From the sequence record MN850603.1: a stretch of DNA of 64,000 bases. The stretch is one strand, 5' to 3'. The notes below the pieces were generated by a model that saw nothing but the letters and a program-made list of their open reading frames with translations, searched no databases and was not told the DNA's origin. Position numbers and translations under genes: made by a program. Shown in pieces: positions 2,969-15,524 of this stretch (position 1 is the stretch's first letter; each line of letters starts with the position of its first letter). Source of the DNA: Escherichia phage pinkbiff.

Positions 2969-2969
2969 A

Positions 2970-3704: not shown

Positions 3705-3720
3705 TAAGCACCTTTGAAAT

Positions 3721-3796: not shown

Positions 3797-3802
3797 ATAA
3801 AT

Positions 3803-3878
3803 TGGGGTGACCTACGGGATTTGAACCCGTATAGACCATGTTCACAGCATGGGTCATTACCATTTATGATAAGGCCAC
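3803..3878 (-). tRNA. tRNA-His (GUG)
   Basis: T-loop TTCAAAT, 7-bp acceptor with one G-U, CCA encoded, anticodon loop CTGTGAA. Confidence 0.75.
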
Positions 3879-3909
3879 ATTTAAGGCCTCTCGTAAGAAC
3901 CCTTAGAAG

Positions 3910-3985
3910 TGGCAGCGGCATAAGGATTTGAACCTTAATAGGACAGCTTCAGAGACTGCTGCATTGCCAGTTATGCTATACCGCT
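3910..3985 (-). tRNA. tRNA-Gln (CUG)
   Basis: D-stem GCAT/ATGC, T-loop TTCAAAT, CCA encoded, anticodon loop CTCTGAA. Confidence 0.65.
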
Positions 3986-3990
3986 AAATT

Positions 3991-4069
3991 TGGTACTCCA
4001 TATCGGATTCGAACCGATACATAACACAGATTTTAAGTCTGGCCTCTCTGCCAATTGGAGTAATGGAGC
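3991..4069 (-). tRNA. tRNA with anticodon UAA (Leu-type anticodon; short variable arm)
   Basis: T-arm ATCGG-TTCGAAT-CCGAT, 7-bp acceptor, A73, CCA; anticodon loop CTTAAAA. 79 nt with no long variable arm, so isotype needs confirmation. Confidence 0.55.
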
Positions 4070-4071
4070 AT

Positions 4072-4147
4072 TGGCGGGGGATGTTGGAATTGAACCAACT
4101 TCTTCGATTTCAAAGACCGAGGTTTTAACCTTGTAAACTAATCCCCT
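4072..4147 (-). tRNA. tRNA-Gln (UUG)
   Basis: T-arm GTTGG-TTCAATT-CCAAC, D-arm GTTT/AAAC, anticodon loop CTTTGAA; 1:72 unpaired. Confidence 0.7.
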
Positions 4148-4155
4148 TTAAATCT

Positions 4156-4713
4156 TTACTTTCTCAGTGGATGAATAAAGAATGCCAACATAACTCTTTC
4201 CCTTGAGAATGCTCTTTCTTCTGGGACAACACTTTTTAGTTTCCATCCAACATAGATTCTCCAGTAAAACTGTTTACCAAAGACTTTAATTGACGGAATA
4301 AAAGCGAATAATCCCCAAGCATTGTTGTTCCACATTAGGAGATAACCTGTCTGATTATCTTCGGGGTCAGAACTTACGTTGATATTACCTTTCCACTTAG
4401 TAACATCTTTTACATCTCTTCCTAATACATGGTAAGAGAAGTTATAAGCTTTGTTTCTCCAGAGCCATCCGACTCTCTGCATGTAGACACCCAGCTTACC
4501 AATCTTTCTAATCTTAGCCCATCTTTTAACGTGACCCTCATCACCATCAATTGGGTTGTCATATGTCTCCATCCATCTGAACCCGAAAGGTAAGTGTCCT
4601 TTCTTCTCACTGTAGAATGGAACTACAAAAGGTGCTAAGATAACTGCTAAGATTGCTGCAAATGGCTCTAACAAAGCTAAGAAAATCCATGAAGCATACT
4701 TCAAATATCTCAT
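4156..4713 (-). CDS. hypothetical membrane protein (185 aa)
   Basis: ATG at 4713 with AAGAGG SD; hydrophobic N-terminal segment. Confidence 0.6.
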   Translation of the reverse strand: MRYLKYASWIFLALLEPFAAILAVILAPFVVPFYSEKKGHLPFGFRWMETYDNPIDGDEGHVKRWAKIRKIGKLGVYMQRVGWLWRNKAYNFSYHVLGRDVKDVTKWKGNINVSSDPEDNQTGYLLMWNNNAWGLFAFIPSIKVFGKQFYWRIYVGWKLKSVVPEERAFSRERVMLAFFIHPLRK

Positions 4714-4732
4714 CTAAATAGCCTCTTTAAAT

Positions 4733-4808
4733 TGGCGCAGGATAAGGGATTCGAACCCCTATTAACAGCTTCGTAGACTGTTGCTCTATCCATTTGAACT
4801 AATCCTGC
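4733..4808 (-). tRNA. tRNA-Arg (ACG)
   Basis: T-loop TTCGAAT, 7-bp acceptor, CCA encoded, anticodon stem-loop ACAGT-CTACGAA-GCTGT. Confidence 0.75.
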
Positions 4809-4922
4809 TTACCTACGAGAACACCATACAGTTTTTCACAAACTTTGTTTTTACGTCTGTTTAGGTATGACGCTCTAAACTTTTTTGCGATGGAGTTATT
4901 ACTCATGGTGCTCTCCTCAAAT

Positions 4923-5000
4923 TGGTGTTCCAAGACGGATTCGAACCGTCACTAATACAAGGTTTGAGCTTGCATCCTCTGCCAATTGGGATACTGGAAC
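4923..5000 (-). tRNA. tRNA with anticodon CAA (Leu-type anticodon; short variable arm)
   Basis: T-arm GACGG-TTCGAAT-CCGTC, acceptor 7 bp, A73, CCA; anticodon loop CTCAAAC; 78 nt. Confidence 0.55.
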
Positions 5001-5001
5001 A

Positions 5002-5076
5002 TGGTACTCACTAAAGGACTTGAACCTTTTTCTTCATCTTGTAAGGGTGATGTTTTACCATATAAACTAAGCGAGT
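5002..5076 (-). tRNA. tRNA-Val (UAC)
   Basis: T-loop TTCAAGT, acceptor 7 bp incl. G-U, CCA encoded, anticodon loop CTTACAA. Confidence 0.7.
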
Positions 5077-5171
5077 GTGAAAGAGGTCTGAAGTTGTGCC
5101 GCTAACTCAACTCCGTGGAATTTGTTACGGTCTTCAGTTGACACCAGCGGTCTTTCACTTGACCTCTGAAT
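5077..5171 (-). other. unassigned structured spacer (tRNA-like/ncRNA candidate)
   Basis: 95-nt gap between tRNA-Val and tRNA-Thr flanked by complementary ends (agaggtc ... gacctct); no canonical T-loop found. Confidence 0.25.
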
Positions 5172-5247
5172 TGGTGCTCCCACAAGGATTCGAACCCTGA
5201 TAAGTTGCTTACAAGGCAACCGTAATAGCCAATTATACGATAGGAGC
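5172..5247 (-). tRNA. tRNA-Thr (UGU)
   Basis: T-loop TTCGAAT, CCA encoded, perfect anticodon stem GTTGC/GCAAC with loop CTTGTAA. Confidence 0.78.
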
Positions 5248-5254
5248 ATTAATT

Positions 5255-5329
5255 TGGAGCATCCAGAGGGAATCGAACCCTCAACCTCAGTTTGGAAGAC
5301 TGTAATTTTCCCGTTTAAACTATGGATGC
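5255..5329 (-). tRNA. tRNA-Gly (UCC)
   Basis: T-arm GAGGG-TTCGATT-CCCTC, acceptor GCATCCA/TGGATGC, CCA encoded, anticodon loop CTTCCAA. Confidence 0.78.
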
Positions 5330-5335
5330 ACTAAT

Positions 5336-5411
5336 TGGTGGAGAAGCAGGGAATTGAACCCTGTACTTAAGTTTGCAAAACTTATGTTTTAACCATGTAA
5401 ACTACATCCCC
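5336..5411 (-). tRNA. tRNA-Ala (UGC)
   Basis: Acceptor stem with G3:U70 (Ala identity pair), A73, CCA; anticodon stem TAAGT/ACTTA with loop TTTGCAA. Confidence 0.8.
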
Positions 5412-5417
5412 AATGTC

Positions 5418-5493
5418 TGGTACAGGTGGAGGGAATTGAACCCGTCGTCTTACTGATTAAGAGTCAGCCGCATAACCATTTTGCTACACCTGC
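5418..5493 (-). tRNA. tRNA-Lys (CUU)
   Basis: T-loop TTCAATT, CCA encoded, anticodon loop CTCTTAA; T-stem has two mismatches. Confidence 0.65.
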
Positions 5494-5500
5494 ATTAATT

Positions 5501-5578
5501 TGGTGGGAGACAAGGGATTCGAACCCTCAAACATCTCGTTCTAAGCGAGATAGGTTTACCAATTACCATCAATCTCCC
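5501..5578 (-). tRNA. tRNA with anticodon UAG (Leu-type anticodon; short variable arm)
   Basis: T-arm GAGGG-TTCGAAT-CCCTT, acceptor 7 bp, A73, CCA; anticodon stem TCTCG/CGAGA with loop CTTAGAA; non-canonical D region. Confidence 0.55.
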
Positions 5579-5833
5579 ATTAAATCTTTTTAGAGAACTT
5601 CTAAGAACCTAAGCAACAAGGTTCCACAACAAGCTGTAATAACCTTAGAAGCCCTCTAAAAAGACCTAAAAAGGTCTTTGCATAGTCTTGTTTAATCCGG
5701 TGACTAGAACCTTTGGAGAGCTTGATATTATCTCTTCTCCGTGACACCTACTAGGTGTTTTATCAGTGTGTACGACAATACACGAGGGATACCAAAGCAA
5801 CATCCGAATGAAGCTTGGCTTTAAATCTTATTA

Positions 5834-5923
5834 GGCGGTAAGTAAAGGAGTCGAACCCTCACCGTATCTCTACAGTGGCAACTGTTTTCAAGACAGTTTG
5901 GCTACCATTAGCCGCTACCTACC
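5834..5923 (-). tRNA. tRNA-Ser (UGA), type II
   Basis: About 88 nt, long variable arm, T-loop TTCGACT, perfect anticodon stem ACTGT/ACAGT with loop CTTGAAA; 3' end reads GCC-T, so CCA not fully encoded. Confidence 0.7.
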
Positions 5924-5936
5924 CCTAATAAGACTT

Positions 5937-6019
5937 TGGCATGGGACGGAGGAGTTGAACCCCTTTGAAACGGTTTTGGAGGCCGTTGCTCATGCCTTAG
6001 AGTCTTAACATCGTCCCAT
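5937..6019 (-). tRNA. tRNA-Trp (CCA) candidate, atypical D region
   Basis: Perfect 7-bp acceptor ATGGGAC/GTCCCAT, T-loop TTCAACT, CCA encoded, anticodon loop CTCCAAA; 83 nt with an over-long D region. Confidence 0.5.
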
Positions 6020-6160
6020 ACTATAATTCGAAGCTTACCGTATTATCTCAACACTGTAAAGCTCCTTCTCAGGTTATTTACATGTTCTGGAAACATGAGA
6101 TACAGACCACCTCCCTACAGGAAGACCCGCTTAGGTCGTCTAAGTAATCTGCTAACTAAT

Positions 6161-6237
6161 TGGCACACCCTACAGGATTCGAACCTGTAACTCAATGATT
6201 AGAAGTCATTTGCTCTGTCCAGTTGAACTAAGGGTGC
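6161..6237 (-). tRNA. tRNA-Arg (UCU)
   Basis: D-arm GTTC/GAGC, anticodon stem AATGA/TCATT with loop CTTCTAA, T-loop TTCGAAT, CCA encoded. Confidence 0.78.
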
Positions 6238-6573
6238 ATTAATCTTTAAAGACTCTCTTAGAAAGCCCTTAAAGATGCCCACCTTATTAATCATACCGTG
6301 GGCTAGTACGCCAAATTCTTTGATGAGGGATTGGAAGACCTCACTGGTGTTTAGCCTATCAAGCTACTGCCAGAAAAACATTGTCGTTTGCATTTATTTT
6401 AAATTTGCAAAATAGACGCTACGCAACGAAAACTATTCAGAATATGTACAACAAATTTCCCCACATTGTGTTACGTCTAACACTCATGTATTGGTGTTTG
6501 AATTATACATATTATGAAGTATTTTAGTTACTATAAAGTAGTCACATCTCAATGTCAACAACTTTATTGAAAT

Positions 6574-6649
6574 TGGTACTGGTAGGTGGAATCGAACCAC
6601 CGATGTTCCCTTATCAGGGGAGTGTTATAACCTTCTTAACTATACCAGC
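6574..6649 (-). tRNA. tRNA-Ile (GAU)
   Basis: T-arm GGTGG-TTCGATT-CCACC, CCA encoded, anticodon loop CTGATAA. Confidence 0.72.
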
Positions 6650-6650
6650 T

Positions 6651-6727
6651 TGGAGGTTCAGATGGGAATCGAACCCACATTCATAGGGTTTATGAGACCC
6701 TTGCATTACCTTATCTGCGACTGAACC
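6651..6727 (-). tRNA. tRNA-Met (CAU), elongator-like
   Basis: Perfect acceptor GGTTCAG/CTGAACC, anticodon stem AGGGT/ACCCT with loop CTCATAA, T-loop TTCGATT, CCA encoded. Confidence 0.75.
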
Positions 6728-6731
6728 ATAT

Positions 6732-6807
6732 TGGTAGAAGTGGAGGGATTCGAACCCATCGCCTGTCAGATTAAAAGTCTGCCGCATCACCATTCTGCTA
6801 CACTTCC
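6732..6807 (-). tRNA. tRNA-Lys (UUU)
   Basis: Anticodon loop CTTTTAA, T-loop TTCGAAT, CCA encoded; T-stem imperfect. Confidence 0.68.
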
Positions 6808-6810
6808 ATT

Positions 6811-6956
6811 AAATTATCTTTGTAGATAAGCTACCCAGACTTGCTTAAGGTCTGTAGCGATGTGCCTTTTTGGGTTTAAATCTAGAATTTACCCTTTCAC
6901 CCTTTGTGGTCGCATACTCACAGGTAAGCTTAATAACTTATCTACAAAGATAATTA
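6811..6956. repeat. 18-bp perfect inverted repeat flanking about 108 nt inside the tRNA cluster
   Basis: attatctttgtagataag (6813-6830) and its reverse complement cttatctacaaagataat (6938-6955); no tRNA fold found between them. Confidence 0.6.
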
Positions 6957-7004
6957 CCAGACCGTTGTTTATCATCTTAAGTGCTACCATTACACCAACT
7001 CGAC

Positions 7005-7035
7005 CTCTGCCGAGTGAAGGAATCGAACCTTCTCC
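7005..7035 (-). other. isolated tRNA T-arm-like element (possible tRNA remnant)
   Basis: GAAGG-TTCGATT-CCTTC T-arm followed by a 7-nt acceptor-like strand, but no matching 5' half in the expected position. Confidence 0.3.
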
Positions 7036-7239
7036 TTTTCTTTACCGAGAAATAGATTGTTTAAGTTTTGCTGTAAACGGTCTTCTGTAAATTTGTTGAG
7101 CCAGACCAAGTTTTAAATTTTTTTCAAAATTGAATTGGCTTGAAAATATCATACGTACTTGCTGTATTTGGTCTTCTGCCCCTTTAAAGAATACTCGTAA
7201 GAACTCTTTAAGGGAGGGGCTAAATAGCCCTCTCAAAAT

Positions 7240-7317
7240 TGGCGGTTACGAAGGGATTTGAACCCTCATCATCTCCCGTGACAGGGGAGTATTTTAACCA
7301 AATTAAACTACATAACC
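7240..7317 (-). tRNA. tRNA-Asp (GUC)
   Basis: Perfect anticodon stem CTCCC/GGGAG with loop CTGTCAC, T-loop TTCAAAT, CCA encoded. Confidence 0.75.
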
Positions 7318-7322
7318 TTTAT

Positions 7323-7410
7323 TGGTGTGCCGTGTAGGAGTCGAACCTACCGAGTCTCAATGACAAGGGATTTACAGTCCCCACCGCTACCATCTACGGG
7401 ATAACGACAC
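7323..7410 (-). tRNA. tRNA-Tyr (GUA), type II
   Basis: 88 nt, long variable arm, anticodon stem GGGGA/TCCCT with loop CTGTAAA, T-loop TTCGACT, CCA encoded. Confidence 0.72.
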
Positions 7411-7478
7411 ATTTAATTTCTATTCAGGCTAAGGACTTGCACCTTACAAATCGGTGAGCAATCGCTTCTCTCCTAAAT
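7411..7478 (-). other. unassigned 68-nt spacer with variant T-arm-like hairpin
   Basis: AAGG-TGCAAGT-CCTT hairpin but no complete cloverleaf. Confidence 0.2.
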
Positions 7479-7479
7479 T

Positions 7480-7556
7480 TGGCGGTTAGTCAGGGATTCG
7501 AACCCTGTGCCATTCGCTTAACAGGCGACCGCACATACCTTATGTGCTTCCTAACC
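7480..7556 (-). tRNA. tRNA-Asn (GUU)
   Basis: D-arm GCAC/GTGC, T-arm CAGGG-TTCGAAT-CCCTG, CCA encoded, anticodon loop CTGTTAA. Confidence 0.72.
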
Positions 7557-7639
7557 ATGTTTAGTATTACCAGACCGTATCTTTCAATTTTTCCGCTAAA
7601 AATTTAATAAATATTGCTGTAAACGGTCTTCTGTAAATT

Positions 7640-7716
7640 TGGAGGCGGGTGCAGGAGTCGAACCTGCCGATACCATGCTAATGAGACATGTGAGACGCCC
7701 TTTCTCTATACCCGCA
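7640..7716 (-). tRNA. tRNA-Met (CAU), second copy (initiator or Ile2-type possible)
   Basis: T-loop TTCGACT, CCA encoded, anticodon loop CTCATTA, 1:72 unpaired (T:C). Confidence 0.6.
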
Positions 7717-7806
7717 ATTCTTAATGACCAGACCAAATATCTTCTTTGTCCGATTTCGTGTCAGATGAGTAGATTAAGTTTGCTGTAATTGGTCTTCTGT
7801 CAAAAC

Positions 7807-7884
7807 TGGCGTTCCAGAAGGGATTTGAACCCTCAAATATCCACTTTGAAAGAGTGGTGACTTTACCATTTTGTCTACTGGAAC
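7807..7884 (-). tRNA. tRNA-Glu (UUC)
   Basis: Perfect acceptor GTTCCAG/CTGGAAC, anticodon stem CCACT/AGTGG with loop CTTTCAA, T-loop TTCAAAT, CCA encoded. Confidence 0.75.
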
Positions 7885-7891
7885 ATTAATT

Positions 7892-7968
7892 TGGTCTCTG
7901 TTGGAGGACTTGAACCTCCGGCCTTACCGCCCCAAACGGAACGCTCTACCAAGCTGAGCTAAACAGAG
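7892..7968 (-). tRNA. tRNA-Pro (UGG)
   Basis: Canonical D-arm GCTC-AGCTTGGTA-GAGC, T-arm GGAGG-TTCAAGT-CCTCC, CCA encoded, anticodon loop TTTGGGG. Confidence 0.75.
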
Positions 7969-8133: not shown

Positions 8134-9549
8134 TTACCAGATGTAACGGTCAATCATTACTGCTTTGAGCATTACACTGATTGGGTCAAACTTCTCACCA
8201 CCAAGCAAAGCTTTTAAAGTGGCTGGAGAGAAACCAGATACCATTGCTACACCGTTATCCTTAACAGACACTTCGCAAGTACCATTACGGTTTGCTAAGT
8301 ACCAGAATACCAGTTGTGGCATTTCGTATCCAGCTTTCTTGTACTTACTCTGAATTGCTTCAAAGTTTGTACGACCGTTAGCTCCATCAACCTGATTGAA
8401 CTCCATATCAGAGAAGATGATAAGCTTACTTGGCATATCTTTCTGAGTCAAGTTGTTTCTTTTACCTACCTCAAGAATGCGGTCAAAAGCTGCCTGTAAG
8501 TTAGTTGAGCCATATTCAACGTGTCGCATCACCTGACGATGACGGTTTCGTAAATCACCACTCAGTTCAATGAAGTGAGGGTTTGTTGAATAAACCATCA
8601 ACTCATCCTTAAAGCAACCTGTATTGCGTTCTGCTACATACAAGGCAAGTGATACGCCAATATCAAGGGCAGTGATTGAACCAAGATTCACCCAAGACAT
8701 TGAGCTTGAAACATCAGTCATACACAAGATGTTCTCACCTTCTGCCATCCAGTTTGGTAGTGCTTTCCACTGCTCATTGGCAACATCTGCATTACCATGC
8801 TTGATAGACTTAATCACATCGTATGGATAAACAGCACCAGCGTTAATCTTAGACTCACCCTTTGAGAGTGATTCGATGTAAGCTTTGTAACGTTCTCCAT
8901 CTTTGCGGTTAAAGAGCTTTTGGTAACGTGCAGCAGCGAGTGAAGGAATCTTGCTGTAGTCAATCTTACCAAACTCATTAGCAGAGATTTTTTGCTCAAC
9001 CGTATCAGACAGTGCAGATAACAGTGTGCGGTACTCTTTCTCACTCAAGTTGGCAAACTTGCAGAAACGTTTTACAAACTGCTTATGACGTGGTTTGACT
9101 CGTGGTAACCACTTAGCTGCCAAACCTGCTGTTGCAGGGTCTAGTAATGCTGCCTCTAAATGTTTGAAGGCATCCGTCTCGAAACGAGTACCTACGAAGA
9201 TTTTGAAGTCATCAAAACGACCAAGTTCTGCAATCTTATCCATAATGCGAAGAACCTGTGTAGGCTCTAAAACTTTATCTTCAATTGCTTGAAGTAAAAC
9301 AGTTCGGAAAGCTTTACGCTCACCCATACCTTCCCGTACATCTCGCATATGCAGTAAAATACGAACTGCAACATCAACATCCTCATGCAAAGCTTTGTAG
9401 AACAGGTCTGGTAAGATTTCTACATTGCTACGGCTTGAGCCAGCGGCTTTGTAAAAGTCTACCAGAGCAGACATTGATGAAGTATGGTTTACAGCACCAT
9501 TTTCAGTCCGACCTGCATGAAGGTGTGCATGTTTAAATAACTCGCTCAT
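8134..9549 (-). CDS. vWA-domain protein with MIDAS motif (471 aa); Ro60/TROVE-like architecture possible
   Basis: ATG at 9549 with GGAGAG SD; C-terminal region carries DxSxS (DVSSSMS) and a downstream SDMEF, typical of von Willebrand A metal-ion-dependent adhesion sites; helical N-terminal 280 aa. Confidence 0.7.
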   Translation of the reverse strand: MSELFKHAHLHAGRTENGAVNHTSSMSALVDFYKAAGSSRSNVEILPDLFYKALHEDVDVAVRILLHMRDVREGMGERKAFRTVLLQAIEDKVLEPTQVLRIMDKIAELGRFDDFKIFVGTRFETDAFKHLEAALLDPATAGLAAKWLPRVKPRHKQFVKRFCKFANLSEKEYRTLLSALSDTVEQKISANEFGKIDYSKIPSLAAARYQKLFNRKDGERYKAYIESLSKGESKINAGAVYPYDVIKSIKHGNADVANEQWKALPNWMAEGENILCMTDVSSSMSWVNLGSITALDIGVSLALYVAERNTGCFKDELMVYSTNPHFIELSGDLRNRHRQVMRHVEYGSTNLQAAFDRILEVGKRNNLTQKDMPSKLIIFSDMEFNQVDGANGRTNFEAIQSKYKKAGYEMPQLVFWYLANRNGTCEVSVKDNGVAMVSGFSPATLKALLGGEKFDPISVMLKAVMIDRYIW

Positions 9550-9628: not shown

Positions 9629-10000
9629 TTATTTTTTGAGAGTCGCTACAGCAGAAAACGTTGGTTTGTTATCTGTCTGGGTTTGACCACCATTATCGGG
9701 GGTCTTCTTAGTGTCTGCTGCAATCGCTTTCATCTCACCTGCTGAGTGGGTCATGATAGTTTTACCAGCTTCCATCATCGACTTCAGGTTTACATCGTCA
9801 GTCGTCAAACCGAACTCTGCAAGCTTAGCAGCATCCCTTGTAACAATCGCCTCAAACAACTTTGCAGCAAACTCAGCAGAATTATCAATGGTCAGTTGAG
9901 CTTTTACGAGTGAGCTTTTGTTACGAGAGCCTTTTGGTCTTCCAGATGGGTTTCCAGACTGGCCTTTTTTAAACTGGCCTTTGTTTGTTCTGTTTTTCAT
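9629..10000 (-). CDS. hypothetical basic protein (123 aa)
   Basis: ATG at 10000 with AAGAGG SD; N-terminal Gly/Lys/Arg-rich segment. Confidence 0.6.
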   Translation of the reverse strand: MKNRTNKGQFKKGQSGNPSGRPKGSRNKSSLVKAQLTIDNSAEFAAKLFEAIVTRDAAKLAEFGLTTDDVNLKSMMEAGKTIMTHSAGEMKAIAADTKKTPDNGGQTQTDNKPTFSAVATLKK

Positions 10001-10175
10001 TGGTATGCCTCTTATAAGACCTCTTAAAAGGCTTTTAAGATAAAAGATAGATATCCAGAAAGATATCTGTTTAAATAGCCTTTTTAGAGGAACCTTTTAA
10101 GTTATCTTCTAAGTATTTATAAGCCTACACCTTGTCAAGTACTTTGTCAACAACTTTTTTAACTTGCAATAGTTC

Positions 10176-10204
10176 TTGACTTGTTGTATGGATTACTGTA
10201 CCAT
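10176..10204 (+). promoter_or_regulatory. candidate promoter for the plus-strand operon
   Basis: TTGACT (10176-10181), 17-nt spacer, TACCAT (10199-10204), about 45 nt upstream of the first plus-strand ORF. Confidence 0.3.
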
Positions 10205-10249
10205 CTTACTTAAAGCTGTAGGTCTGCCTTGTTCTACAAAGGAGACTTA

Positions 10250-10411
10250 ATGAGGAAATCAAATAAACCGAAGAAAGGTAAGAATACCAATCACTGTAAG
10301 GAATCAAAAAGGGTAGAATTAATCTACTATTCATCCTCTGAAATTGGTCTGTACCTGTTCTTTCAAAATTACAGAAGACAAGAGGATTATCTATGTGTAG
10401 TTCCCAATTAG
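10250..10411 (+). CDS. hypothetical small basic protein (53 aa)
   Basis: ATG at 10250 preceded by AAGGAGA; track ORF starts at an upstream TTG. Confidence 0.4.
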   Translation: MRKSNKPKKGKNTNHCKESKRVELIYYSSSEIGLYLFFQNYRRQEDYLCVVPN

Positions 10412-10626
10412 AAATCGCAGATATTATAGACTTATATCAAACTGCAAAGAGTCATGGCTATATAACCTCAATTGGAAAGAATAGTCACTATGATGCTTTG
10501 ACTGGAATGTATTTCAGGGCAATGGCTCAATCTAGTGAACAACACTTAGTGGTTTCTTCCAGTGAGTTTACTTCGTTTCTCTATTGCAGCAAAATTATAA
10601 ATCGCAGGAGAACTGAAAAATGTTAA
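10393..10626 (+). CDS. hypothetical protein (77 aa)
   Basis: ATG with AAGAGGA SD; overlaps neighbours by a few nt (operon-like packing). Confidence 0.5.
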   Translation: MCSSQLEIADIIDLYQTAKSHGYITSIGKNSHYDALTGMYFRAMAQSSEQHLVVSSSEFTSFLYCSKIINRRRTEKC

Positions 10627-11210
10627 CAGTAAGTTTTAATTACAATAGTGATGGCTCTGTATCAATTAACTCACCATATGCAAATGACCTACTTAAAGAG
10701 CTAGTCAGTCAGTGTGAGCGGGGTCTTCACTATGTTCAAAATTCTTTTAAACAGAAGACTATTGCTAATAACTTGATGCGTGTAACAGTGACGGCATCGA
10801 ATCCAAACTATGACTTTGATAGTGAAAGTCCATACTCATTAGTTGCGCTTGGAGAGTCCAGCCAATTCAAACTTGTTTGCCACGACTCAGAAACATTCCT
10901 TAAGGTATTTTCCAACCTTACCCATAATAATAAGTACAGCTACGTTGATGGTAGTGTAAACTTCTATCCAGCAAACTATACATGTTTGTTGACTGATAAT
11001 ATGAGAAAAAGTAAGCAAGAACCTACAGAAATTTCATTTGATGTGAACTCTAGTCCAGACGCAGAAACAAGTAAGAACTTTGATATGAGTTACGCATTGT
11101 CACTTAGTAAGAAATCCGAGTTCATTGATTATGTCAATGGATTTGGTTTTAAGTTTGATGAGAGTATGAATCTTAAAAAACTTAAGAACCTACTTAAGAC
11201 TAAAGCTTAA
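10620..11210 (+). CDS. hypothetical protein (196 aa)
   Basis: ATG 10620 with AGGAGA SD. Confidence 0.6.
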   Translation: MLTVSFNYNSDGSVSINSPYANDLLKELVSQCERGLHYVQNSFKQKTIANNLMRVTVTASNPNYDFDSESPYSLVALGESSQFKLVCHDSETFLKVFSNLTHNNKYSYVDGSVNFYPANYTCLLTDNMRKSKQEPTEISFDVNSSPDAETSKNFDMSYALSLSKKSEFIDYVNGFGFKFDESMNLKKLKNLLKTKA

Positions 11211-11257
11211 GTGTGAATAGGGGCTGATGCCCCTTTAACTATTTATAAGGATATTTA

Positions 11258-11629
11258 ATGAAAGCTAAGAGTGCAAAAGACTTTTATTGCTTCCTACAAT
11301 CCTATATCAATTCCGTGCAAAATGGTGAAAGGTACAACCTTAATGATGTTATCCCAACACCTTTGACATGGAGACTCAGCAAATGGCCTGAAGAAGATAT
11401 TACACCAACAAGCGAACAACGCACCTACAAACCTGAAATCAATATTCCAGACTCTGAGAATCTACTATATCCAATGTTCCATATTGTTGGTCTTGGAAGA
11501 TTCCTTATGGATATCCAGTATGTAATTGGTAAGGGTTATAAGGTTAAAGGTATTGTTGTTGGTGATGTATCTCCACATCACAAAGGTTATTTTAGACTAA
11601 ACGCACATTTAGAGGCTAAAAAGAAATGA
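11258..11629 (+). CDS. hypothetical protein (123 aa), paralog of the N-terminal domain of the next gene
   Basis: ATG with AAGGA SD; shares a conserved motif (W-P-E-x-D-I ... F-x-M-D-x-Q-Y) with residues 1-120 of the 11626..13011 product. Confidence 0.6.
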   Translation: MKAKSAKDFYCFLQSYINSVQNGERYNLNDVIPTPLTWRLSKWPEEDITPTSEQRTYKPEINIPDSENLLYPMFHIVGLGRFLMDIQYVIGKGYKVKGIVVGDVSPHHKGYFRLNAHLEAKKK

Positions 11630-13011
11630 TTAAAGCAAAGACTTACCCAGACTTCAAAGAGTTTGTGAAGGGCTTCATTGCAAACGTAAAAGCTGGTAAG
11701 AGATATGATTTTAGAGCATATCAAGAGGCTATTTTACCGCTTACCTATAGTTCGTATTGGCCTGAAGCTGATATTGCAGAAGTTGAGGAGTTTGACTACA
11801 AACCAGACTACAAAGTTCCATTTAGTGATGAGTTGCTTTACAGCATTGGTGCTCAAATGAGAACTTCTGACTTCTTCATGGACTTACAATATGCAATTAT
11901 CAATGGTAAAGACGTTGACACAATTTATTGTGAATGGCTGGCAAGAGTTAAACCATTCTCAATGTTGAATGCTAAGTTGAAGGATGCTATCAAGCCACCA
12001 GCAATCACTCAGCAACCAACCAATCAAACAGTAAATGAAGGTGACACACTTACCCTAAGTGTTATTGCAACTAATGCCACTGGATATCAATGGAAAAAGG
12101 GTGGTGAGGATATCACTAGCGCCACATCTGCAACCTACACAAAACAGTCTGTAGCACCTTCTGATGCAGGTTCATACACTTGTGTTGTATCTGGAGAGGC
12201 TGGAACAAGTGTTACCTCAGATGCGGCAACAGTTACTGTCAACGCACTGCCTGTGATTACACAGCAACCTTCTAGCCAGACCATCAATGAGGGTGGGAAC
12301 ATTAACTTGGAAGTGACTGCAACAGGTGCAACAGGTTATCAGTGGAAGAAAGATGGCTCTGACATCCCTTCAGCTACAGAGGCTACCTATAGCAAGTCTG
12401 GTGCGCTGCCAGCAGATGCAGGTTCATACACTTGCGTTGTAACAGGTGCAGGTGGTTCTGTTACTTCTAGCCCTGCAACTGTCACGGTAAATGCTTTGCC
12501 AGTTATTACCAAGCAGCCAACCAATCAGGTAGTTAATGAGGGTAGCTCTTTGACACTGAGTGTTGAGGCGACAGGTGCGGAAGGTTATCAGTGGAAAAAG
12601 GACGATGTGAACATCCCTAGTGCAACTGGTGCGACTTACACGAAAGCTAACGCAGTTCCTGACGATGCTGGTTCATATACCTGTGTAGTTACTGGTGCTG
12701 GTGGTACAACAGTCACATCTAATGCTGCAACAGTTACTGTGAATGCACTTCCGGTAATCACTCAACAGCCAACCAATCAAGAAACCAATGAAGGTGAGAC
12801 CTTAACGCTGAATGTTGTAGCAACAGGTGCAACAGGTTACCAGTGGAAGAAAGGTGAGGAAGACATCCTCGATGCAACTACTGCAACTTACACCAAAGAA
12901 GGTGCAACCGCTGCTGATTCAGGAAGCTACACCTGTGTAGTTACTGGTGCAGGTGGCTCTGTAACATCTAATGCAGCAACAGTTACTGTTAACCCAGCAG
13001 GGGAGGCATAA
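11626..13011 (+). CDS. Ig-like (I-set-type) tandem-repeat protein (461 aa)
   Basis: N-terminal paralog domain followed by four tandem repeats of about 84 aa, each with P-V-I-T-Q-Q-P ... G-Y-Q-W-K-K ... A-G-S-Y-T-C-V-V. Confidence 0.75.
   Translation: MIKAKTYPDFKEFVKGFIANVKAGKRYDFRAYQEAILPLTYSSYWPEADIAEVEEFDYKPDYKVPFSDELLYSIGAQMRTSDFFMDLQYAIINGKDVDTIYCEWLARVKPFSMLNAKLKDAIKPPAITQQPTNQTVNEGDTLTLSVIATNATGYQWKKGGEDITSATSATYTKQSVAPSDAGSYTCVVSGEAGTSVTSDAATVTVNALPVITQQPSSQTINEGGNINLEVTATGATGYQWKKDGSDIPSATEATYSKSGALPADAGSYTCVVTGAGGSVTSSPATVTVNALPVITKQPTNQVVNEGSSLTLSVEATGAEGYQWKKDDVNIPSATGATYTKANAVPDDAGSYTCVVTGAGGTTVTSNAATVTVNALPVITQQPTNQETNEGETLTLNVVATGATGYQWKKGEEDILDATTATYTKEGATAADSGSYTCVVTGAGGSVTSNAATVTVNPAGEA
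11995..13005 (+). repeat. four tandem direct repeats of about 250 bp each (encode the Ig-like domains)
   Basis: Near-periodic recurrence of ...gttactgt(c/g)aa(c/t)gca(c/t)t(g/t)cc(t/a/g)gt(g/a/t)at(t/c)ac... and ggtta(t/c)cagtggaa(a/g)aa at about 250-bp spacing. Confidence 0.75.
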
Positions 13012-13475
13012 TGCAACTCTCAAGAAAAGGCTTAGATGCTATTAAGTTCTTTGAAGGTCTGAAGTTAGAGGCTTACGAAGACTCTGCCGGAATCCCAACA
13101 ATCGGGTATGGTACAATCCGTATTGACGGAAAACCTGTTAAGATGGGTATGAAAATTACTGCTGAACAAGCTGAACAGTATCTTCTCGCAGATGTTGAAA
13201 AGTTCGTTGCAGCAGTGAACAAATCCATCAAGGTTCCAACTTCCCAGAATGAGTTTGACGCACTTGTAAGTGAAACATACAACATTGGCATCACAGCTAT
13301 GCAGGACTCTACATTTATTAAGCGCCACAACGATGGCAATAAGGTAGGTTGTGCAGAAGCTATGCAATGGTGGAACAAGGTTACAGTCAAAGGTAAGAAG
13401 GTCACTTCAAACGGTCTTAAAAACAGACGTAGAATGGAAGCTGACATTTATCTTGACAGTGTATATCCAAAGTAA
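13011..13475 (+). CDS. endolysin, T4-lysozyme-like (GH24)
   Basis: N-terminal F-E-G-L-K-L-E-A-Y-E-D-S-A-G-I-P-T-I-G-Y-G-T matches the Glu/Asp/Thr catalytic region of T4-type lysozymes; GGGGAGG SD. Confidence 0.85.
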   Translation: MQLSRKGLDAIKFFEGLKLEAYEDSAGIPTIGYGTIRIDGKPVKMGMKITAEQAEQYLLADVEKFVAAVNKSIKVPTSQNEFDALVSETYNIGITAMQDSTFIKRHNDGNKVGCAEAMQWWNKVTVKGKKVTSNGLKNRRRMEADIYLDSVYPK

Positions 13476-13484
13476 TATCTTCAT

Positions 13485-13512
13485 AGGCTCCTTCGGGAGC
13501 CTTTTTTATTTT
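13485..13512 (+). terminator. rho-independent terminator
   Basis: aggctcc-ttcg-ggagcct hairpin followed by TTTTTTATTTT. Confidence 0.7.
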
Positions 13513-13526
13513 CTAAGGAGAAAACT

Positions 13527-13925
13527 ATGAAACTTTGGGCTAGTGACTTTGGGACTTTTAAGTACACTCGTGATGGTTCAATGGTGAGAATTATTGGCAG
13601 CCAGATTGTAGTAAGGGGTGATGAGGTCTGTACAAAGTTCACTGTAGAGTTAGCTGAGCTATCACCTATTACCCGTGCTAAGAATGGGTTTTTCAGGTTC
13701 GAGATTTACAAAGTAGATGAGTACGGTCGGTTCAACCCTCTTGGAGAAAGTGGATTAGATATTATTTCTGAACACCCATTGACAGCAGAGCAATTGTCAG
13801 GTTATTATAAAACTCTACTTGAAAGAGAGTTAGCAACCCACGAGTGTGAAGCAAAATATCACATAGAGCGTTGTGAAACACTCAAAGAAAAGATAAAACT
13901 AGCAGAGAGAGGTTTTTATGAATAA
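13527..13925 (+). CDS. hypothetical protein (132 aa)
   Basis: ATG with AAGGAG SD. Confidence 0.6.
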   Translation: MKLWASDFGTFKYTRDGSMVRIIGSQIVVRGDEVCTKFTVELAELSPITRAKNGFFRFEIYKVDEYGRFNPLGESGLDIISEHPLTAEQLSGYYKTLLERELATHECEAKYHIERCETLKEKIKLAERGFYE

Positions 13926-14313
13926 TAACAGTCATATTCACGTTAAAGTTGATGTCAGCCGTTACAGCGAAAATGAGGAACTAGACCTGCAAGATGCTAT
14001 TCTCTTTGAGAAGAATGGTAATCTCCATCTGCATTTCGAAGGTACAAACACATATCTCCACAGATGTCGAGATGATGCAGATGGTTGCCCTGTTTTTGCT
14101 TGGTATAATTTAGAGTTCCCTCTTTACGCAATCCACTACCCAGATGGTGGAGAAGACTGGACAACTCAGTCAATTTTTGATGAGCTTAACGGTGTTCCGG
14201 TTGAGCAAGAAGAGCAAGAGCCTGTTGAACTGACCTTCACCTTCGTCAAAGAAGAAACGGTTGGTGATTTGTCAGTAACTGAAGCTATTCAGGTAACACA
14301 GGTCATTCGCTAA
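13918..14313 (+). CDS. hypothetical protein (131 aa)
   Basis: Start overlaps the stop of the previous gene. Confidence 0.55.
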   Translation: MNNNSHIHVKVDVSRYSENEELDLQDAILFEKNGNLHLHFEGTNTYLHRCRDDADGCPVFAWYNLEFPLYAIHYPDGGEDWTTQSIFDELNGVPVEQEEQEPVELTFTFVKEETVGDLSVTEAIQVTQVIR

Positions 14314-14606
14314 TGAGTAAAGTACAGGTTATTTTCCCTATTTGTGACTTCTCACTAGAGCGTGAACTTGACCTGTACGAAGAAATTACTGACGAAATTA
14401 TCTGGTCTGTTGTAGAAGAGGCTATCAAGAAACTATATGGTGGCCTCTTAAACCCATCAAGCAAAAAGCTCAATACTAAACAAGTAGCTGACCCATATGT
14501 TTCATATGATGCCTACAACAAACCTTTTGAAAATACCTGCTTTGACCTTATGGTAGGCAATAACAAAGTCAACTATTTCTTCGTCAGAGAGTTTAACGAT
14601 GAGTAA
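14313..14606 (+). CDS. hypothetical protein (97 aa)
   Basis: Start overlaps the stop of the previous gene. Confidence 0.55.
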   Translation: MSKVQVIFPICDFSLERELDLYEEITDEIIWSVVEEAIKKLYGGLLNPSSKKLNTKQVADPYVSYDAYNKPFENTCFDLMVGNNKVNYFFVREFNDE

Positions 14607-14943
14607 GCTCCATGTCACAGTTTACAAAAACTTCTCAGATATCAAAGAGTCTTTAACAAATAAGCTTGACTTACAACGTAAAAGGCTCTTTTTAATGTAT
14701 GACATAGACAACTACAACCATCCTAAAGAGTTCAACTACAAAGATGGTACAAAGGTTGTCGAATTTGAAGATTCTGTGACGGTGTATGTCAAATATGACT
14801 TACCAGCAAAGTACATAGGGATGTTAGAGTATTACATATTCAAACATACAGGTATGCGTGGTGAAGCTGTCAAGATATCTTCTATAGAAGTTTTTGAGAA
14901 ACCTAACACACAACTTAAAAAGTATTTAATGAGGAAACTGTAA
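14599..14943 (+). CDS. hypothetical protein (114 aa)
   Basis: Start overlaps the stop of the previous gene. Confidence 0.55.
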   Translation: MSKLHVTVYKNFSDIKESLTNKLDLQRKRLFLMYDIDNYNHPKEFNYKDGTKVVEFEDSVTVYVKYDLPAKYIGMLEYYIFKHTGMRGEAVKISSIEVFEKPNTQLKKYLMRKL

Positions 14944-15524
14944 TGTCCGAAGAGCAACAGGATATCATTCCACAAGTAACGCTTGTACAACACTTTGGAA
15001 ATATTGAAGGGTGTGTTGCACTTTTTCAACCAAGCATCAACTCTCCTGCAAAAGTTTGCAAACTAACTATGAATGTTAACAACATCAGTGTTTGCCTTGT
15101 TGATGAAGTTCAATATTTCAAGTTTAATGACAGAGAGGTTGATGCTGCACTATTGAAGTACCGAGCAAGCCTAGAAAAAGACATCGACCACAAAGAACTT
15201 GTAACACTGTTTGGTGACCTTCACAAGCTTCTTGAAAAGGTTATTAAGCGCACATATTACATGAACAATGGTTCAATCATCACCACTTTGATTTCACCAT
15301 GTATTTCAGAGCCGATTTTAACTGATGACGGTGGATACTACGTGGTAGCATCAGCAGATTCTGATTGGTGGATGAAGAACACAGCACTTAAAACAGTGAT
15401 TGAGGCTATCCGTGAGCACATCCCCTCATTTAGCCCGTGGAAAGGTAAAAGTGATGATTTTATCGCACTATTGAGTGAAGAGAGCAACAAGCGCAGTGCA
15501 TTACTGCCTAAAAAATACTCTTGA
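14943..15524 (+). CDS. hypothetical protein (193 aa)
   Basis: ATGTCC start overlapping the previous stop. Confidence 0.55.
   Translation: MSEEQQDIIPQVTLVQHFGNIEGCVALFQPSINSPAKVCKLTMNVNNISVCLVDEVQYFKFNDREVDAALLKYRASLEKDIDHKELVTLFGDLHKLLEKVIKRTYYMNNGSIITTLISPCISEPILTDDGGYYVVASADSDWWMKNTALKTVIEAIREHIPSFSPWKGKSDDFIALLSEESNKRSALLPKKYS

What the first reader, a model, noticed from the sequence alone, without database searches (positions are those of the whole stretch)
11258..13475. Ig-like (I-set-type) four-repeat protein and a paralog of its N-terminal domain, directly upstream of the endolysin
Each 84-aa repeat has the eukaryote-like Ig pattern (P-V-I-T-Q-Q-P ... L-x-L ... G-Y-Q-W-K-K ... D-A-G-S-Y-T-C-V-V). 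The repeats are also about 250-bp DNA tandem repeats, prone to recombination and copy-number change. The N-terminal domain is duplicated as a separate 123-aa gene. The genes sit in a non-structural operon next to the lysozyme, which is unusual for phage Ig-like decoration domains.
Basis: seen in the sequence. Interest (0 to 1): 0.55.

Follow-up and report, generated by a model that had tools for sequence, protein, structure and literature searches.

The report
Known Hoc-like capsid decoration protein
The four-repeat Ig protein is the already described "Hex-Dec" head-decoration protein of Felix O1-like phages, which plugs into capsid hexamers and displays Ig domains; the only part nobody has described is the small gene upstream that encodes a copy of its capsid anchor alone.

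Summary
Window 11626-13011 encodes a 461-aa protein with a ~120-aa N-terminal domain and four 83-86-aa I-set Ig repeats. Window 11258-11629 encodes a 123-aa paralog of that N-terminal domain. Window 13011-13475 is the endolysin.

The window is a Felixounavirus; the 461-aa protein is identical to one from phage pinkbiff. It is the ortholog of Bas63 Hex-Dec (PDB 9NCF chain S, E 1.5e-269) and Sf14 gp20 (9C2D). Cryo-EM showed those proteins bind as monomers in the centres of the 60 pentamer-proximal hexamers of the T=9 capsid. The homologs are in virions by mass spectrometry.

The odd gene position and the variable Ig number (1-4) are already published. So the main finding is already known, and the "tail protein" annotation is wrong.

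New here:
- Copy-number variants are in-register mosaics of the window's repeats, which indicates unequal recombination even though the repeats share only 66-71% DNA identity.
- Neither structural paper mentions the anchor-only paralog. It is under purifying selection (dN/dS 0.05-0.18) and its stop overlaps the Hex-Dec start. It is a late gene, lacks the capsid-anchoring Arg79, and is absent from the Felix O1 virion protein list. It arose by tandem duplication and was lost in one clade. Its function is unknown.

The parts
11220..11233 (+). GC hairpin (GGGGC-TGAT-GCCCC) followed by TTTAAC. It lies between the upstream 196-aa ORF (stop at 11208-11210) and the paralog, and is annotated as a rho-independent terminator in wV8 and AYO145A.
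   Evidence: Sequence read; annotations. The simple scan did not call it because the T-run is weak, so it is probably leaky.
11258..11629 (+). Gene for the 123-aa stand-alone paralog of the Hex-Dec capsid-binding domain (phrog_4463). Orthologs: Felix O1 ORF37, wV8 gp42, Sf14 gp21, bas63_0125. AAGGA Shine-Dalgarno at 11247-11251; the stop codon overlaps the Hex-Dec start (ATGA, 11626-11629).
11626..13011 (+). Hex-Dec (Hoc-like) capsid decoration protein, 461 aa. It is identical to QHR70041.1 of phage pinkbiff and the ortholog of Bas63 Hex-Dec (9NCF_S) and Sf14 gp20 (9C2D_S).
   Evidence: PMC12609058; PMC11821841.
11626..11985 (+). Capsid-binding domain (CapBD, aa 1-120). It contains Arg79 (nt 11860-11862) and Arg107 (nt 11944-11946), the residues that salt-bridge to MCP Asp221 in Sf14.
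   Evidence: both Arg invariant in Hex-Dec orthologs; PMC11821841 read.
11998..12249 (+). Ig repeat 1 (aa 125-208).
12250..12498 (+). Ig repeat 2 (aa 209-291).
12499..12750 (+). Ig repeat 3 (aa 292-375). This unit is missing from the 3-Ig relatives wV8 and AYO145A.
12751..13008 (+). Ig repeat 4 plus a short C-terminal tail (aa 376-461). Its 3' part is retained in every copy-number variant examined.
13011..13475 (+). Endolysin (Phage_lysozyme / GH24). Its start overlaps the Hex-Dec stop (TAATG). It is co-located with Hex-Dec but not functionally tied to it.
13485..13512 (+). Strong intrinsic terminator (AGGCTCC-TTCG-GGAGCCT followed by TTTTTATTTT) that closes the three-gene unit.
   Evidence: annotated in wV8 and AYO145A.

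Best explanation
The 461-aa gene encodes the Felixounavirus hexamer decoration protein (Hex-Dec; 'Hoc-like').

Shown in close homologs, and inferred here by orthology: the N-terminal ~120-aa capsid-binding domain inserts as a monomer into the centre of each of the 60 pentamer-proximal (facet-edge) hexamers of the T=9 head. It is held by salt bridges from Arg79 and Arg107 to the ring of MCP Asp221. It does not bind the 20 hexamers on the true 3-fold axes.

Shown here: four I-set Ig domains follow the anchor as a flexible string. They lack the canonical B-strand cysteine, so they have no intradomain disulfide.

Inferred by analogy with T4 Hoc and T5 pb10: the Ig string gives weak, multivalent adhesion to glycans on mucus or cell surfaces, or modulates particle aggregation. 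It is dispensable for plaque formation.

The gene is a late gene in a three-gene unit (paralog, Hex-Dec, endolysin) that sits about 9 kb from the terminase gene, beyond a cluster of 26 tRNA genes and on the opposite strand. Ig number changes over evolutionary time by in-register unequal recombination between the diverged repeats.

The upstream 123-aa gene is a tandem duplicate of the anchor alone. It is functional (purifying selection) and made late, with its stop overlapping the Hex-Dec start. It has lost the key anchoring arginine and has not been reported in virions. My best guess, at low confidence, is an accessory of head decoration that is non-virion or substoichiometric, rather than a second ordered decoration protein.
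For: Identity:
- phmmer to PDB gives 9ncf_S (Bas63 'Immunoglobulin-like domain protein', 460 aa) at E 1.5e-269 over residues 1-459, and 9c2d_S (Sf14 'tail protein', 372 aa) at E 1.1e-161.
- DNA of the locus is 88-96% identical to about 200 Felixounavirus genomes.
- The exact protein is in phage pinkbiff.

Capsid location and binding mode: PMC12609058 and PMC11821841.

Virion presence: Felix O1 gp36, 31.6 kDa, 14 peptides; Sf14 gp20 was detected by MS.

Arg79 and Arg107 are conserved in the window protein and in all Hex-Dec orthologs aligned.

Ig fold: Pfam; AF2 pLDDT 90-95; Foldseek to Robo, titin and GhpA; sequence match of one Ig unit to the T5 pb10 Ig domain 5lxk at 2.8e-12.

Late expression: Felix O1 ORF36 and ORF37 are maximal at 60 min, while the lysin ORF35 is maximal at 25 min.

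Dispensability: Hex-Dec is fragmented or truncated in the isolated phages ST11 and Z31.

Copy number:
- Locus spans of 2856, ~2604, ~2353 and ~2103 bp correspond to 4, 3, 2 and 1 Ig units in 3, 19, 23 and 9 of 54 sampled genomes.
- Mosaic junctions are in register, e.g. Felix O1 = Ig1-[Ig2::Ig4] and JH2 = [Ig1::Ig4].

Paralog:
- Same fold as the solved CapBD (TM 0.61, prob 1.0).
- dN/dS 0.05-0.18 among the three genera, 0.29 against a distant metagenomic relative.
- Start/stop overlap conserved.
- Arg79 is replaced by an invariant Gly, and Arg107 by Q or H.
- Absent from the list of 17 Felix O1 virion proteins.
- Both cryo-EM phages encode it, yet no density was reported on other capsomers.
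Against: - No experiment exists on this particular phage. Capsid binding is inferred from orthologs with 98% (Felix O1, wV8) to 85% (Sf14) identical CapBDs.
- The adhesive role of the Ig string is untested in any Ounavirinae; both structural papers say the function is unknown.
- AF2 does not reproduce the CapBD fold with confidence in the full-length run (pLDDT 35-60). The paralog model is only moderate (pLDDT 68).
- The evidence that the paralog is not in virions is negative evidence only: a 2010 MS list, cryo-EM maps with icosahedral averaging, and no access to the Sf14 MS data.
Confidence: 0.9

Rival explanations
1. Tail protein, as most GenBank records annotate it: the Ig protein is a tail or tail-fibre component.
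For: 'Tail protein', 'putative tail protein' or 'major tail protein' in most records. phrog_3995 is labelled 'tail protein'. Felix O1 gp36 was called 'major tail protein'.
Against: Cryo-EM of two relatives places the N-terminal domain in capsid hexamer centres, and the Bas63 authors state the tail annotation is wrong. The PHROG and GenBank names come from Ig-domain similarity to tail-tube Ig appendages. The CapBD matches only the capsid-bound chains 9ncf_S and 9c2d_S.
Confidence: 0.02
2. Lysis accessory: because it is co-transcribed with the endolysin, the Ig protein (and/or the paralog) binds peptidoglycan or envelope carbohydrate and assists lysis instead of decorating virions.
For: Overlapping stop/start with the endolysin gene (TAATG at 13009-13013). 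The three-gene unit is bracketed by terminators. The adjacency is conserved across Ounavirinae.
Against: The protein is in CsCl-purified virions and resolved on the capsid. In Felix O1, ORF36 and ORF37 peak at 60 min with morphogenesis genes while the lysin peaks at 25 min. In phiEa21-4 a terminator separates the decoration gene from the lysin. There is no signal peptide or membrane segment in the sequence.
Confidence: 0.03
3. Paralog as a structural protein: the 123-aa protein is an Ig-less cap that binds capsomers Hex-Dec does not occupy (the 20 true-3-fold hexamers, portal-proximal sites or proheads), or competes with Hex-Dec to set how many Ig fibres a head carries.
For: Same fold as the capsid-binding domain. 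Late expression. The stop overlaps the Hex-Dec start, which suggests co-production. Purifying selection. In phage SP3_SHan-2021 the first ~48 codons of the paralog replace those of Hex-Dec in a chimeric gene, so the first lobe is at least compatible with that context.
Against: Arg79, one of the two capsid-anchoring arginines, is an invariant Gly in all paralogs, and Arg107 is Q or H in most. Both Bas63 and Sf14 encode the paralog, yet the authors report no density on the other hexamers. It is not among the Felix O1 virion proteins although smaller proteins (9.7-13 kDa) were detected. One clade lost it while keeping Hex-Dec.
Confidence: 0.25
4. Paralog as a decaying duplicate with no function.
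For: It is dispensable. It has been reduced to a ~190-nt remnant without a start codon in the REP5/CECAV041/Z31 clade and fused away in SP3_SHan-2021.
Against: dN/dS is 0.05-0.18 at dS up to about 1.2, comparable to the endolysin and the CapBD. Full length (122-124 aa) is kept in 232 of 252 phage records and in a 45%-identical metagenomic relative with the same synteny.
Confidence: 0.03

Closest known systems
Bas63 (Escherichia phage JohannRWettstein) Hex-Dec, PDB 9NCF chain S; Sci Adv 2025, PMC12609058
   Same: Same genus, same gene position (paralog, Hex-Dec, endolysin), and the same architecture of CapBD plus four Ig domains. It aligns end to end at E 1.5e-269, with most substitutions in the third Ig repeat.
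   Different: Ig repeat 3 is the divergent part. The paper reported four Ig domains only for Bas63 among the 18 ICTV species. This window and at least six other genomes (MET-P1-301, DaR-2019b, DR094, AN17P8, PK6, SME50) also have four.
Shigella phage Sf14 gp20 (Mooglevirus), PDB 9C2D/9C3A chain S; Commun Biol 2025, PMC11821841
   Same: Orthologous CapBD (85% identity) with Arg79 and Arg107, I-set Ig repeats, the same synteny including the paralog gp21, and detection in virions by MS.
   Different: Three Ig domains, and more diverged Ig sequences (64% identity in Ig1).
[quoted passage not shown]
   Same: A monomer at hexamer centres, a string of Ig-like domains projecting from the head, dispensable, and acidic. 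PHROG 'Hoc-like head decoration' families match through the Ig part.
   Different: The Hoc capsid-binding domain is C-terminal, smaller and topologically distinct, and domain order is reversed (PMC12609058). No sequence similarity was detected outside the Ig part. Hoc occupies all hexamers of the T4 head (my knowledge of the T4 literature, not tested here), whereas Hex-Dec occupies only the 60 pentamer-proximal ones.
T5 pb10 decoration protein (PDB 5LXK, 8ZVI)
   Same: [quoted passage not shown] The Ig domain is detectably homologous (E 2.8e-12 and 6.7e-12 to aa ~300-374). It binds hexamer centres.
   Different: A single Ig domain. No detectable similarity between the capsid-binding domains; the match covers only the Ig unit.
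Erwinia phage phiEa21-4 gp38 (Kolesnikvirus, Ounavirinae)
   Same: Homologous CapBD (37% identity, tblastn 2e-6) in the same position between the gp38-like gene and the endolysin.
   Different: It carries one Big_2 domain (Pfam 2e-21) instead of I-set repeats, and it has no upstream paralog.

Membership tests
Ounavirinae Hex-Dec / Sf14 gp20 hexamer decoration protein | N-terminal ~120-aa capsid-binding domain homologous to the solved chains | tested here: met
   phmmer to 9ncf_S at 1.5e-269 (residues 1-459) and to 9c2d_S at 1.1e-161. CapBD identity is 98% to Felix O1 and wV8, and 85% to Sf14.
Ounavirinae Hex-Dec / Sf14 gp20 hexamer decoration protein | Capsid-anchoring Arg79 and Arg107 (salt bridges to MCP Asp221 in Sf14) | tested here: met
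   Both are present in the window protein (AQMR79TSDFF, EWLAR107VKPF) and invariant in the aligned Hex-Dec orthologs.
Ounavirinae Hex-Dec / Sf14 gp20 hexamer decoration protein | C-terminal string of Ig-like domains (1-4) | tested here: met
   Four I-set/Ig_3 units; AF2 pLDDT 90-95; Foldseek matches to Ig chains.
Ounavirinae Hex-Dec / Sf14 gp20 hexamer decoration protein | Conserved gene position upstream of the endolysin and outside the structural module | tested here: met
   The same order is found in wV8, Felix O1, AYO145A, JH2, Bas63, Sf14, Moogle, SUSP1 and a metagenomic relative. TerL is at 750-2366 on the opposite strand, beyond the tRNA cluster.
Ounavirinae Hex-Dec / Sf14 gp20 hexamer decoration protein | Physically bound as a monomer at the centres of pentamer-proximal hexamers of the T=9 capsid | not testable with these tools
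   Shown by cryo-EM for Bas63 and Sf14 only. Inferred here by orthology.
T4 Hoc family | Tandem Ig-like domains displayed from the head | tested here: met
T4 Hoc family | C-terminal Hoc-type capsid-binding domain (domain order Ig...CapBD) | tested here: not met
   The CapBD is N-terminal. PMC12609058 reports it as larger, topologically distinct and reversed in order. PHROG Hoc-like matches cover only the Ig part, aa 290-459.
T5 pb10 family | pb10-type N-terminal capsid-binding domain | tested here: not met
   The match to 5lxk_A and 8zvi_a covers only aa ~300-374, which is one Ig unit. Nothing aligns to the CapBD.
Pfam I-set (PF07679) immunoglobulin domain | Score above the curated gathering threshold; core Trp in strand C and the D-x-G-x-Y-x-C motif in strand F | tested here: met
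   117.3 bits against a cut-off of 23.7, with 4 stretches. GYQW and DAGSYTC are in every repeat. The B-strand Cys is absent (L-T-L-S-V), so there is no canonical disulfide; this is read directly from the sequence.
CapBD-only paralog (phrog_4463) as a capsid-binding protein | Same fold as the solved CapBD | tested here: met
   The AF2 model (pLDDT 68, pTM 0.69) matches 9ncf_S and 9c2d_S with TM 0.61 and prob 1.00. These are the only PDB hits with E below 0.001.
CapBD-only paralog (phrog_4463) as a capsid-binding protein | Retention of the capsid-anchoring arginines | tested here: not met
   Arg79 is replaced by an invariant Gly (VGLG). Arg107 is replaced by Q or H, and is Arg only in the 45%-identical relative.
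CapBD-only paralog (phrog_4463) as a capsid-binding protein | Presence in purified virions | tested here: inconclusive
   It is not in the Felix O1 virion list of 17 proteins. Neither cryo-EM paper lists or discusses it. The raw Sf14 MS data and the VpaE1 Table S2 could not be read.

The most novel reading that the evidence does not exclude
The anchor-only paralog is a regulator of head decoration. In this reading it is an Ig-less plug that transiently or substoichiometrically occupies hexamer centres, for example on proheads or on the 20 true-3-fold hexamers. It would thereby help determine where, and how many, Ig fibres a Felix O1-like head displays. That would be a previously unrecognised way for a phage to tune its surface display.
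Probability: 0.15. Interest if true: 0.5.

Novelty: already known. Interest (0 to 1): 0.25.

Why it matters
For the main finding, the value is corrective. The gene is widely mis-annotated as a tail protein, but it is a structurally characterised, Hoc-like capsid decoration protein. Nothing about its position next to the endolysin calls for a new mechanism.

Two smaller points could interest phage structural biologists and people who use Hoc-like proteins for display.
- The Ig number changes by in-register recombination between repeats that share only about 70% DNA identity. The first and last units are kept, so natural 1-4-Ig series exist for functional comparison.
- Most Felix O1-like, Moogle-like and SUSP-like phages keep a selected copy of the capsid anchor alone whose stop overlaps the Hex-Dec start, and its role is unknown. 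If it acts on capsids, it would bear on why Hex-Dec decorates only 60 of the 80 hexamers.

Tried and rejected
- **Tandem Repeats Finder** on 10000-15000 found nothing. The repeats are too diverged at the DNA level, so I characterised them from the protein.
- **The search for homologous proteins with the CapBD** returned almost only 210-aa (1-Ig) clusters. It could not give the copy-number distribution, so I used locus spans from megablast instead.
- **Exhaustive phmmer of the paralog** against 1.84 billion representatives gave only 7 hits, all in Ounavirinae-like phages except one weak hit to a 2,705-aa protein that I judged spurious. No distant family gives a functional clue.
- **Foldseek of the paralog model** against PDB and BFVD found only CapBD relatives.
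- **Net charge and pI** of the paralog versus the CapBD are inconsistent between lineages and uninformative.
- **A possible late-promoter motif**, CTATTTATAAGG, upstream of the paralog is not enriched in the window: 15 matches against 8.2 +/- 3.1 expected.
- **The sigma-70 scan** of the locus found fewer sites than shuffles.
- **VpaE1 virion proteomics**: Table S2 is held only as an image. The 2018 Sf14 paper is not in the library.
- **'gp21' in the Sf14 supplement** refers to SPP1 gp21, not to the paralog.
- **A decaying-duplicate reading of the paralog** was considered and rejected on dN/dS.
- **A tail or lysis role for the Ig protein** was rejected on published cryo-EM, MS and RT-PCR data.
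Full report
**What is in the sequence**

- The last ORF is a GH24 endolysin (Pfam Phage_lysozyme, 2.5e-40).
- The 461-aa protein has a ~120-aa N-terminal domain with no Pfam match, followed by four Ig units at aa 125-208, 209-291, 292-375 and 376-461.
- Pfam scores are Ig_3 3.1e-44, Ig_2 4.5e-35 and I-set 3.3e-34, each with four stretches.
- Each unit carries P-[AV]-I-T-[QK]-Q-P, GYQWKK and D-[AS]-G-S-Y-T-C-V-V.
- The strand-B cysteine of canonical Ig domains is missing (L-T-L-S-V). There is therefore no intradomain disulfide, as expected for a protein that folds in the bacterial cytoplasm. This is read directly from the sequence.
- AlphaFold2 folds residues ~123-456 as four beta-sandwiches at pLDDT 90-95.
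- The best solved-structure matches are Robo1 Ig1-4, titin I-band fragments, sidekick and contactin proteins, and the bacterial GhpA.

The 123-aa ORF is a genuine paralog of the N-terminal domain. It shows 37% aa and 54% nt identity and phmmer E 1.2e-11 and 5.2e-11 to the two solved homologs.

The four units share only 66-71% nt identity, with longest exact matches of 14-20 nt. TRF reports nothing, and the repeat finder recovers only 37-41-nt segments at 249-252-nt spacing.

**What it is**

The locus is 88-96% identical to about 200 Felixounavirus genomes. The 461-aa protein is identical to QHR70041.1 of Escherichia phage pinkbiff.

A sequence search of the PDB gives two near-full-length matches:
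- 9ncf chain S (Bas63 / phage JohannRWettstein, 460 aa), E 1.5e-269.
- 9c2d/9c3a chain S (Shigella phage Sf14 gp20, 372 aa), E 1.1e-161.

The papers behind these entries settle the identity.
- **Bas63** (PMC12609058): "Hex-Dec" is a monomeric, Hoc-like decoration protein. [quoted passage not shown] No density is seen on the other hexamers. The four Ig-like domains are flexible and unresolved. The gene lies more than 10 kb outside the structural module. The "tail protein" annotation is stated to be wrong, and Felixounavirus species encode one to four Ig domains.
- **Sf14** (PMC11821841): gp20 was detected in particles by MS. The CapBD is the N-terminal 118 aa. Arg79 and Arg107 form salt bridges to Asp221 of three MCP subunits. 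[quoted passage not shown]
- **Felix O1** (PMC3185647): ORF36 (31.6 kDa, the 2-Ig ortholog) was found in CsCl-purified virions with 14 peptides. Its position away from the morphogenesis genes was remarked on in 2010.

The window protein keeps both Arg79 and Arg107. It therefore meets every testable membership criterion of this family. Physical capsid binding in this particular phage is inferred by orthology.

**Gene context and expression**

The window map is as follows.

| Coordinates | Strand | Feature |
|---|---|---|
| 750-2366 | - | Large terminase |
| 2796-7968 | - | 26 tRNA genes |
| 8134-9549 | - | DUF2828/DUF7788 protein |
| 9629-10000 | - | DUF5681 protein |
| from ~10.2 kb | + | Divergent run of small genes |

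Within that + strand run:
- A GC hairpin at 11220-11233 follows the upstream 196-aa ORF.
- The paralog has a good Shine-Dalgarno sequence.
- Its stop overlaps the Hex-Dec start (ATGA, 11626-11629).
- The Hex-Dec stop overlaps the lysin start (TAATG).
- A strong intrinsic terminator follows at 13485-13512.

The same order, paralog then Hex-Dec then lysin, with an overlapping paralog/Hex-Dec junction, occurs in wV8, AYO145A, Felix O1, JH2, Bas63, Sf14, Moogle and SUSP1. It also occurs in an 87-kb metagenomic contig whose paralog is only 45% identical.

Felix O1 RT-PCR puts ORF36 and ORF37 in the late class (60 min) with portal, tail and fibre genes. The lysin ORF35 peaks at 25 min. So the neighbourhood is real and conserved. 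It does not imply a lysis function, and it was already published.

**Copy number and how it changes**

I measured the span from the upstream ORF to the lysin in an evenly spaced sample of 54 genomes with a complete locus.

| Locus span (bp) | Ig units | Genomes |
|---|---|---|
| 2856 | 4 | 3 |
| ~2604 | 3 | 19 |
| ~2353 | 2 | 23 |
| ~2103 | 1 | 9 |

I then mapped the relatives' Ig regions onto the window's four units in 36-nt windows. The shorter genes are in-register mosaics.

| Phage | Composition |
|---|---|
| wV8, AYO145A | Ig1-Ig2-Ig4 |
| Felix O1 | Ig1-[Ig2::Ig4], junction about 70-90 nt into the unit, at the GYQWKK codons |
| JH2 | [Ig1::Ig4] |
| REP5 | [Ig1::Ig2]-Ig4 |
| CECAV041 | [Ig1::Ig2::Ig4] |

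The start of the first unit and the end of the last are always kept. This is the signature of unequal homologous recombination between repeats. The two structural papers described the variation. They suggested premature stops or gain from host genes (Sf14), or "missing C-terminal sequence" (Bas63). The mosaic junction analysis is a small addition to that.

**The anchor-only paralog**

This is the only part not covered by the literature I could read. "Paralog" occurs in neither paper. Sf14 gp21 and bas63_0125 are never mentioned. The "gp21" in the Sf14 supplement is SPP1 gp21.

*Distribution.*
- The family is 122-124 aa long and 68-100% identical within Felixounavirus, Mooglevirus and Suspvirus.
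- 232 of 252 phage records with any match keep it full length.
- An exhaustive phmmer search of 1.84 billion representative proteins finds nothing outside this group.

*Fold and selection.*
- An AF2 model (pLDDT 68, pTM 0.69) matches the solved CapBDs 9ncf_S and 9c2d_S at TM 0.61, prob 1.00. These are the only PDB hits with E below 0.001.
- Nei-Gojobori dN/dS is 0.05-0.18 among the three genera and 0.29 against the distant relative. That is similar to the CapBD (0.04-0.15) and the lysin (0.04-0.13), so it is a selected gene.

*Differences from the CapBD.* It differs where the CapBD touches the capsid. Arg79 is an invariant Gly (…HIVGLG…). Arg107 is Gln or His, and is Arg only in the distant relative.

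*Virion evidence.*
- It is not among the 17 Felix O1 virion proteins, although proteins of 9.7-13 kDa were detected.
- Both phages used for cryo-EM encode it, yet no density was reported on the undecorated hexamers.

*Origin and loss.*
- Outgroup Ounavirinae lack it. In Erwinia phage phiEa21-4 and Hafnia phage SarahDanielle the order is gp38-like gene, decoration gene, lysin.
- In phiEa21-4 the CapBD carries a Big_2 domain instead of I-set units.
- The paralog therefore arose by tandem duplication of the 5' part of the decoration gene in the ancestor of the Felix O1, Moogle and SUSP lineages.
- It has since been lost at least once. In REP5, CECAV041 and Z31 it is a ~190-nt remnant without a start codon, while Hex-Dec stays intact in REP5 and CECAV041.
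- In SP3_SHan-2021 it was fused away. There, paralog codons 1-~48 join Hex-Dec at a 21-nt microhomology (TGGCCTGAAG..GATAT).

*My reading.* It is a dispensable but selected late accessory protein, probably connected with head decoration, and not an ordered stoichiometric capsid component. The alternative is an Ig-less plug for other capsomers or proheads, or a competitor that sets Hex-Dec occupancy. That alternative is not excluded; I give it about 0.15-0.25.

**How Hex-Dec most likely works**

*Shown in orthologs.* The protein binds as a monomer, through its N-terminal domain, to the 60 pentamer-proximal hexamer centres via Arg-Asp salt bridges.

*Shown here.*
- Conserved anchor residues.
- Four well-folded I-set domains.
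- An acidic Ig string (net charge -16).
- Late co-expression context.
- Dispensability in nature: Hex-Dec is truncated or fragmented in Z31 and ST11.
- Recombinational change of length.

*Inferred.* By analogy with T4 Hoc and T5 pb10, the Ig string provides weak multivalent adhesion to glycans or modulates aggregation, as both structural papers propose. It works like Hoc but is not a member of the Hoc family. The capsid-binding domain is at the other end, is larger and has a different topology, and PHROG "Hoc-like" matches cover only the Ig part. It shares domain order and a homologous Ig domain with T5 pb10 (5lxk, 2.8e-12) but not the anchor.

**Verdict**

Residual interest lies in the undescribed anchor-only paralog and in the mosaic recombination pattern. 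Interest is 0.25.

Noticed in passing
L002:2501-3379 (Salmonella phage SP3_SHan-2021, MW296865); corresponds to window 11258-11404 joined to 11779 onward: There is a single chimeric gene. The first ~48 codons are paralog-type and the rest is Hex-Dec, joined at the shared TGGCCTGAAG..GATAT microhomology, and the separate paralog gene is gone. This is a natural lobe-swap that keeps Arg79 and Arg107.
   Followed up: yes
L013:792-983 (REP5), L014:1613-1797 (CECAV041), L003 (~2306-2497, Z31): In this Felixounavirus clade the paralog is a ~190-nt remnant. The start codon is lost and about 190 nt are deleted internally. Hex-Dec remains intact in REP5 (293 aa) and CECAV041 (210 aa) and is truncated in Z31.
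   Followed up: yes
L016:1741-2355 (Erwinia phage phiEa21-4 gp38); L017:1801-2766 (Hafnia phage SarahDanielle_85): Outgroup Ounavirinae have a homologous capsid anchor in the same gene position, but with a Big_2 domain (phiEa21-4) or a ~200-aa C-terminal part with no Pfam match (Hafnia phage), and no paralog. The anchor appears to be a platform for exchangeable display modules.
   Followed up: partly
window 2796-7968 (- strand): A cluster of 26 tRNA genes lies between the terminase gene (750-2366) and the decoration/lysin transcription unit.
   Followed up: no
window 8134-9549 (- strand): A 471-aa DUF2828 + DUF7788 protein (PHROG 'RNA-binding protein') sits directly next to the tRNA cluster. 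It was not examined further.
   Followed up: no
GU169904.1 'Staphylococcus phage SA1' 142822-143190 and neighbouring sequence: A 147-kb Staphylococcus phage record carries the Felix O1-type paralog and Hex-Dec CapBD at 97-99% aa identity. This suggests a mixed or chimeric database record.
   Followed up: no
cluster members listed (e.g. XIX91489.1, an 88,055-bp 'plasmid' of E. coli; many E. coli and Shigella assembly proteins): Whole Felixounavirus- or Mooglevirus-sized contigs appear inside bacterial genome assemblies, one labelled as a plasmid. They are probably co-sequenced lytic phage rather than plasmids.
   Followed up: no
window 11626-11985 (CapBD) in model m61a0e7aa7ef6: AlphaFold2 predicts the four Ig domains at pLDDT 90-95 but the capsid-binding domain only at 35-60. 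This agrees with the Sf14 authors' remark that the AlphaFold CapBD does not reflect the cryo-EM density.
   Followed up: partly
window 29273-30382 and 30462-32828 (- strand): rIIB- and rIIA-like genes are present by PHROG (3e-88 and 3e-189). This is ordinary for this phage group.
   Followed up: no
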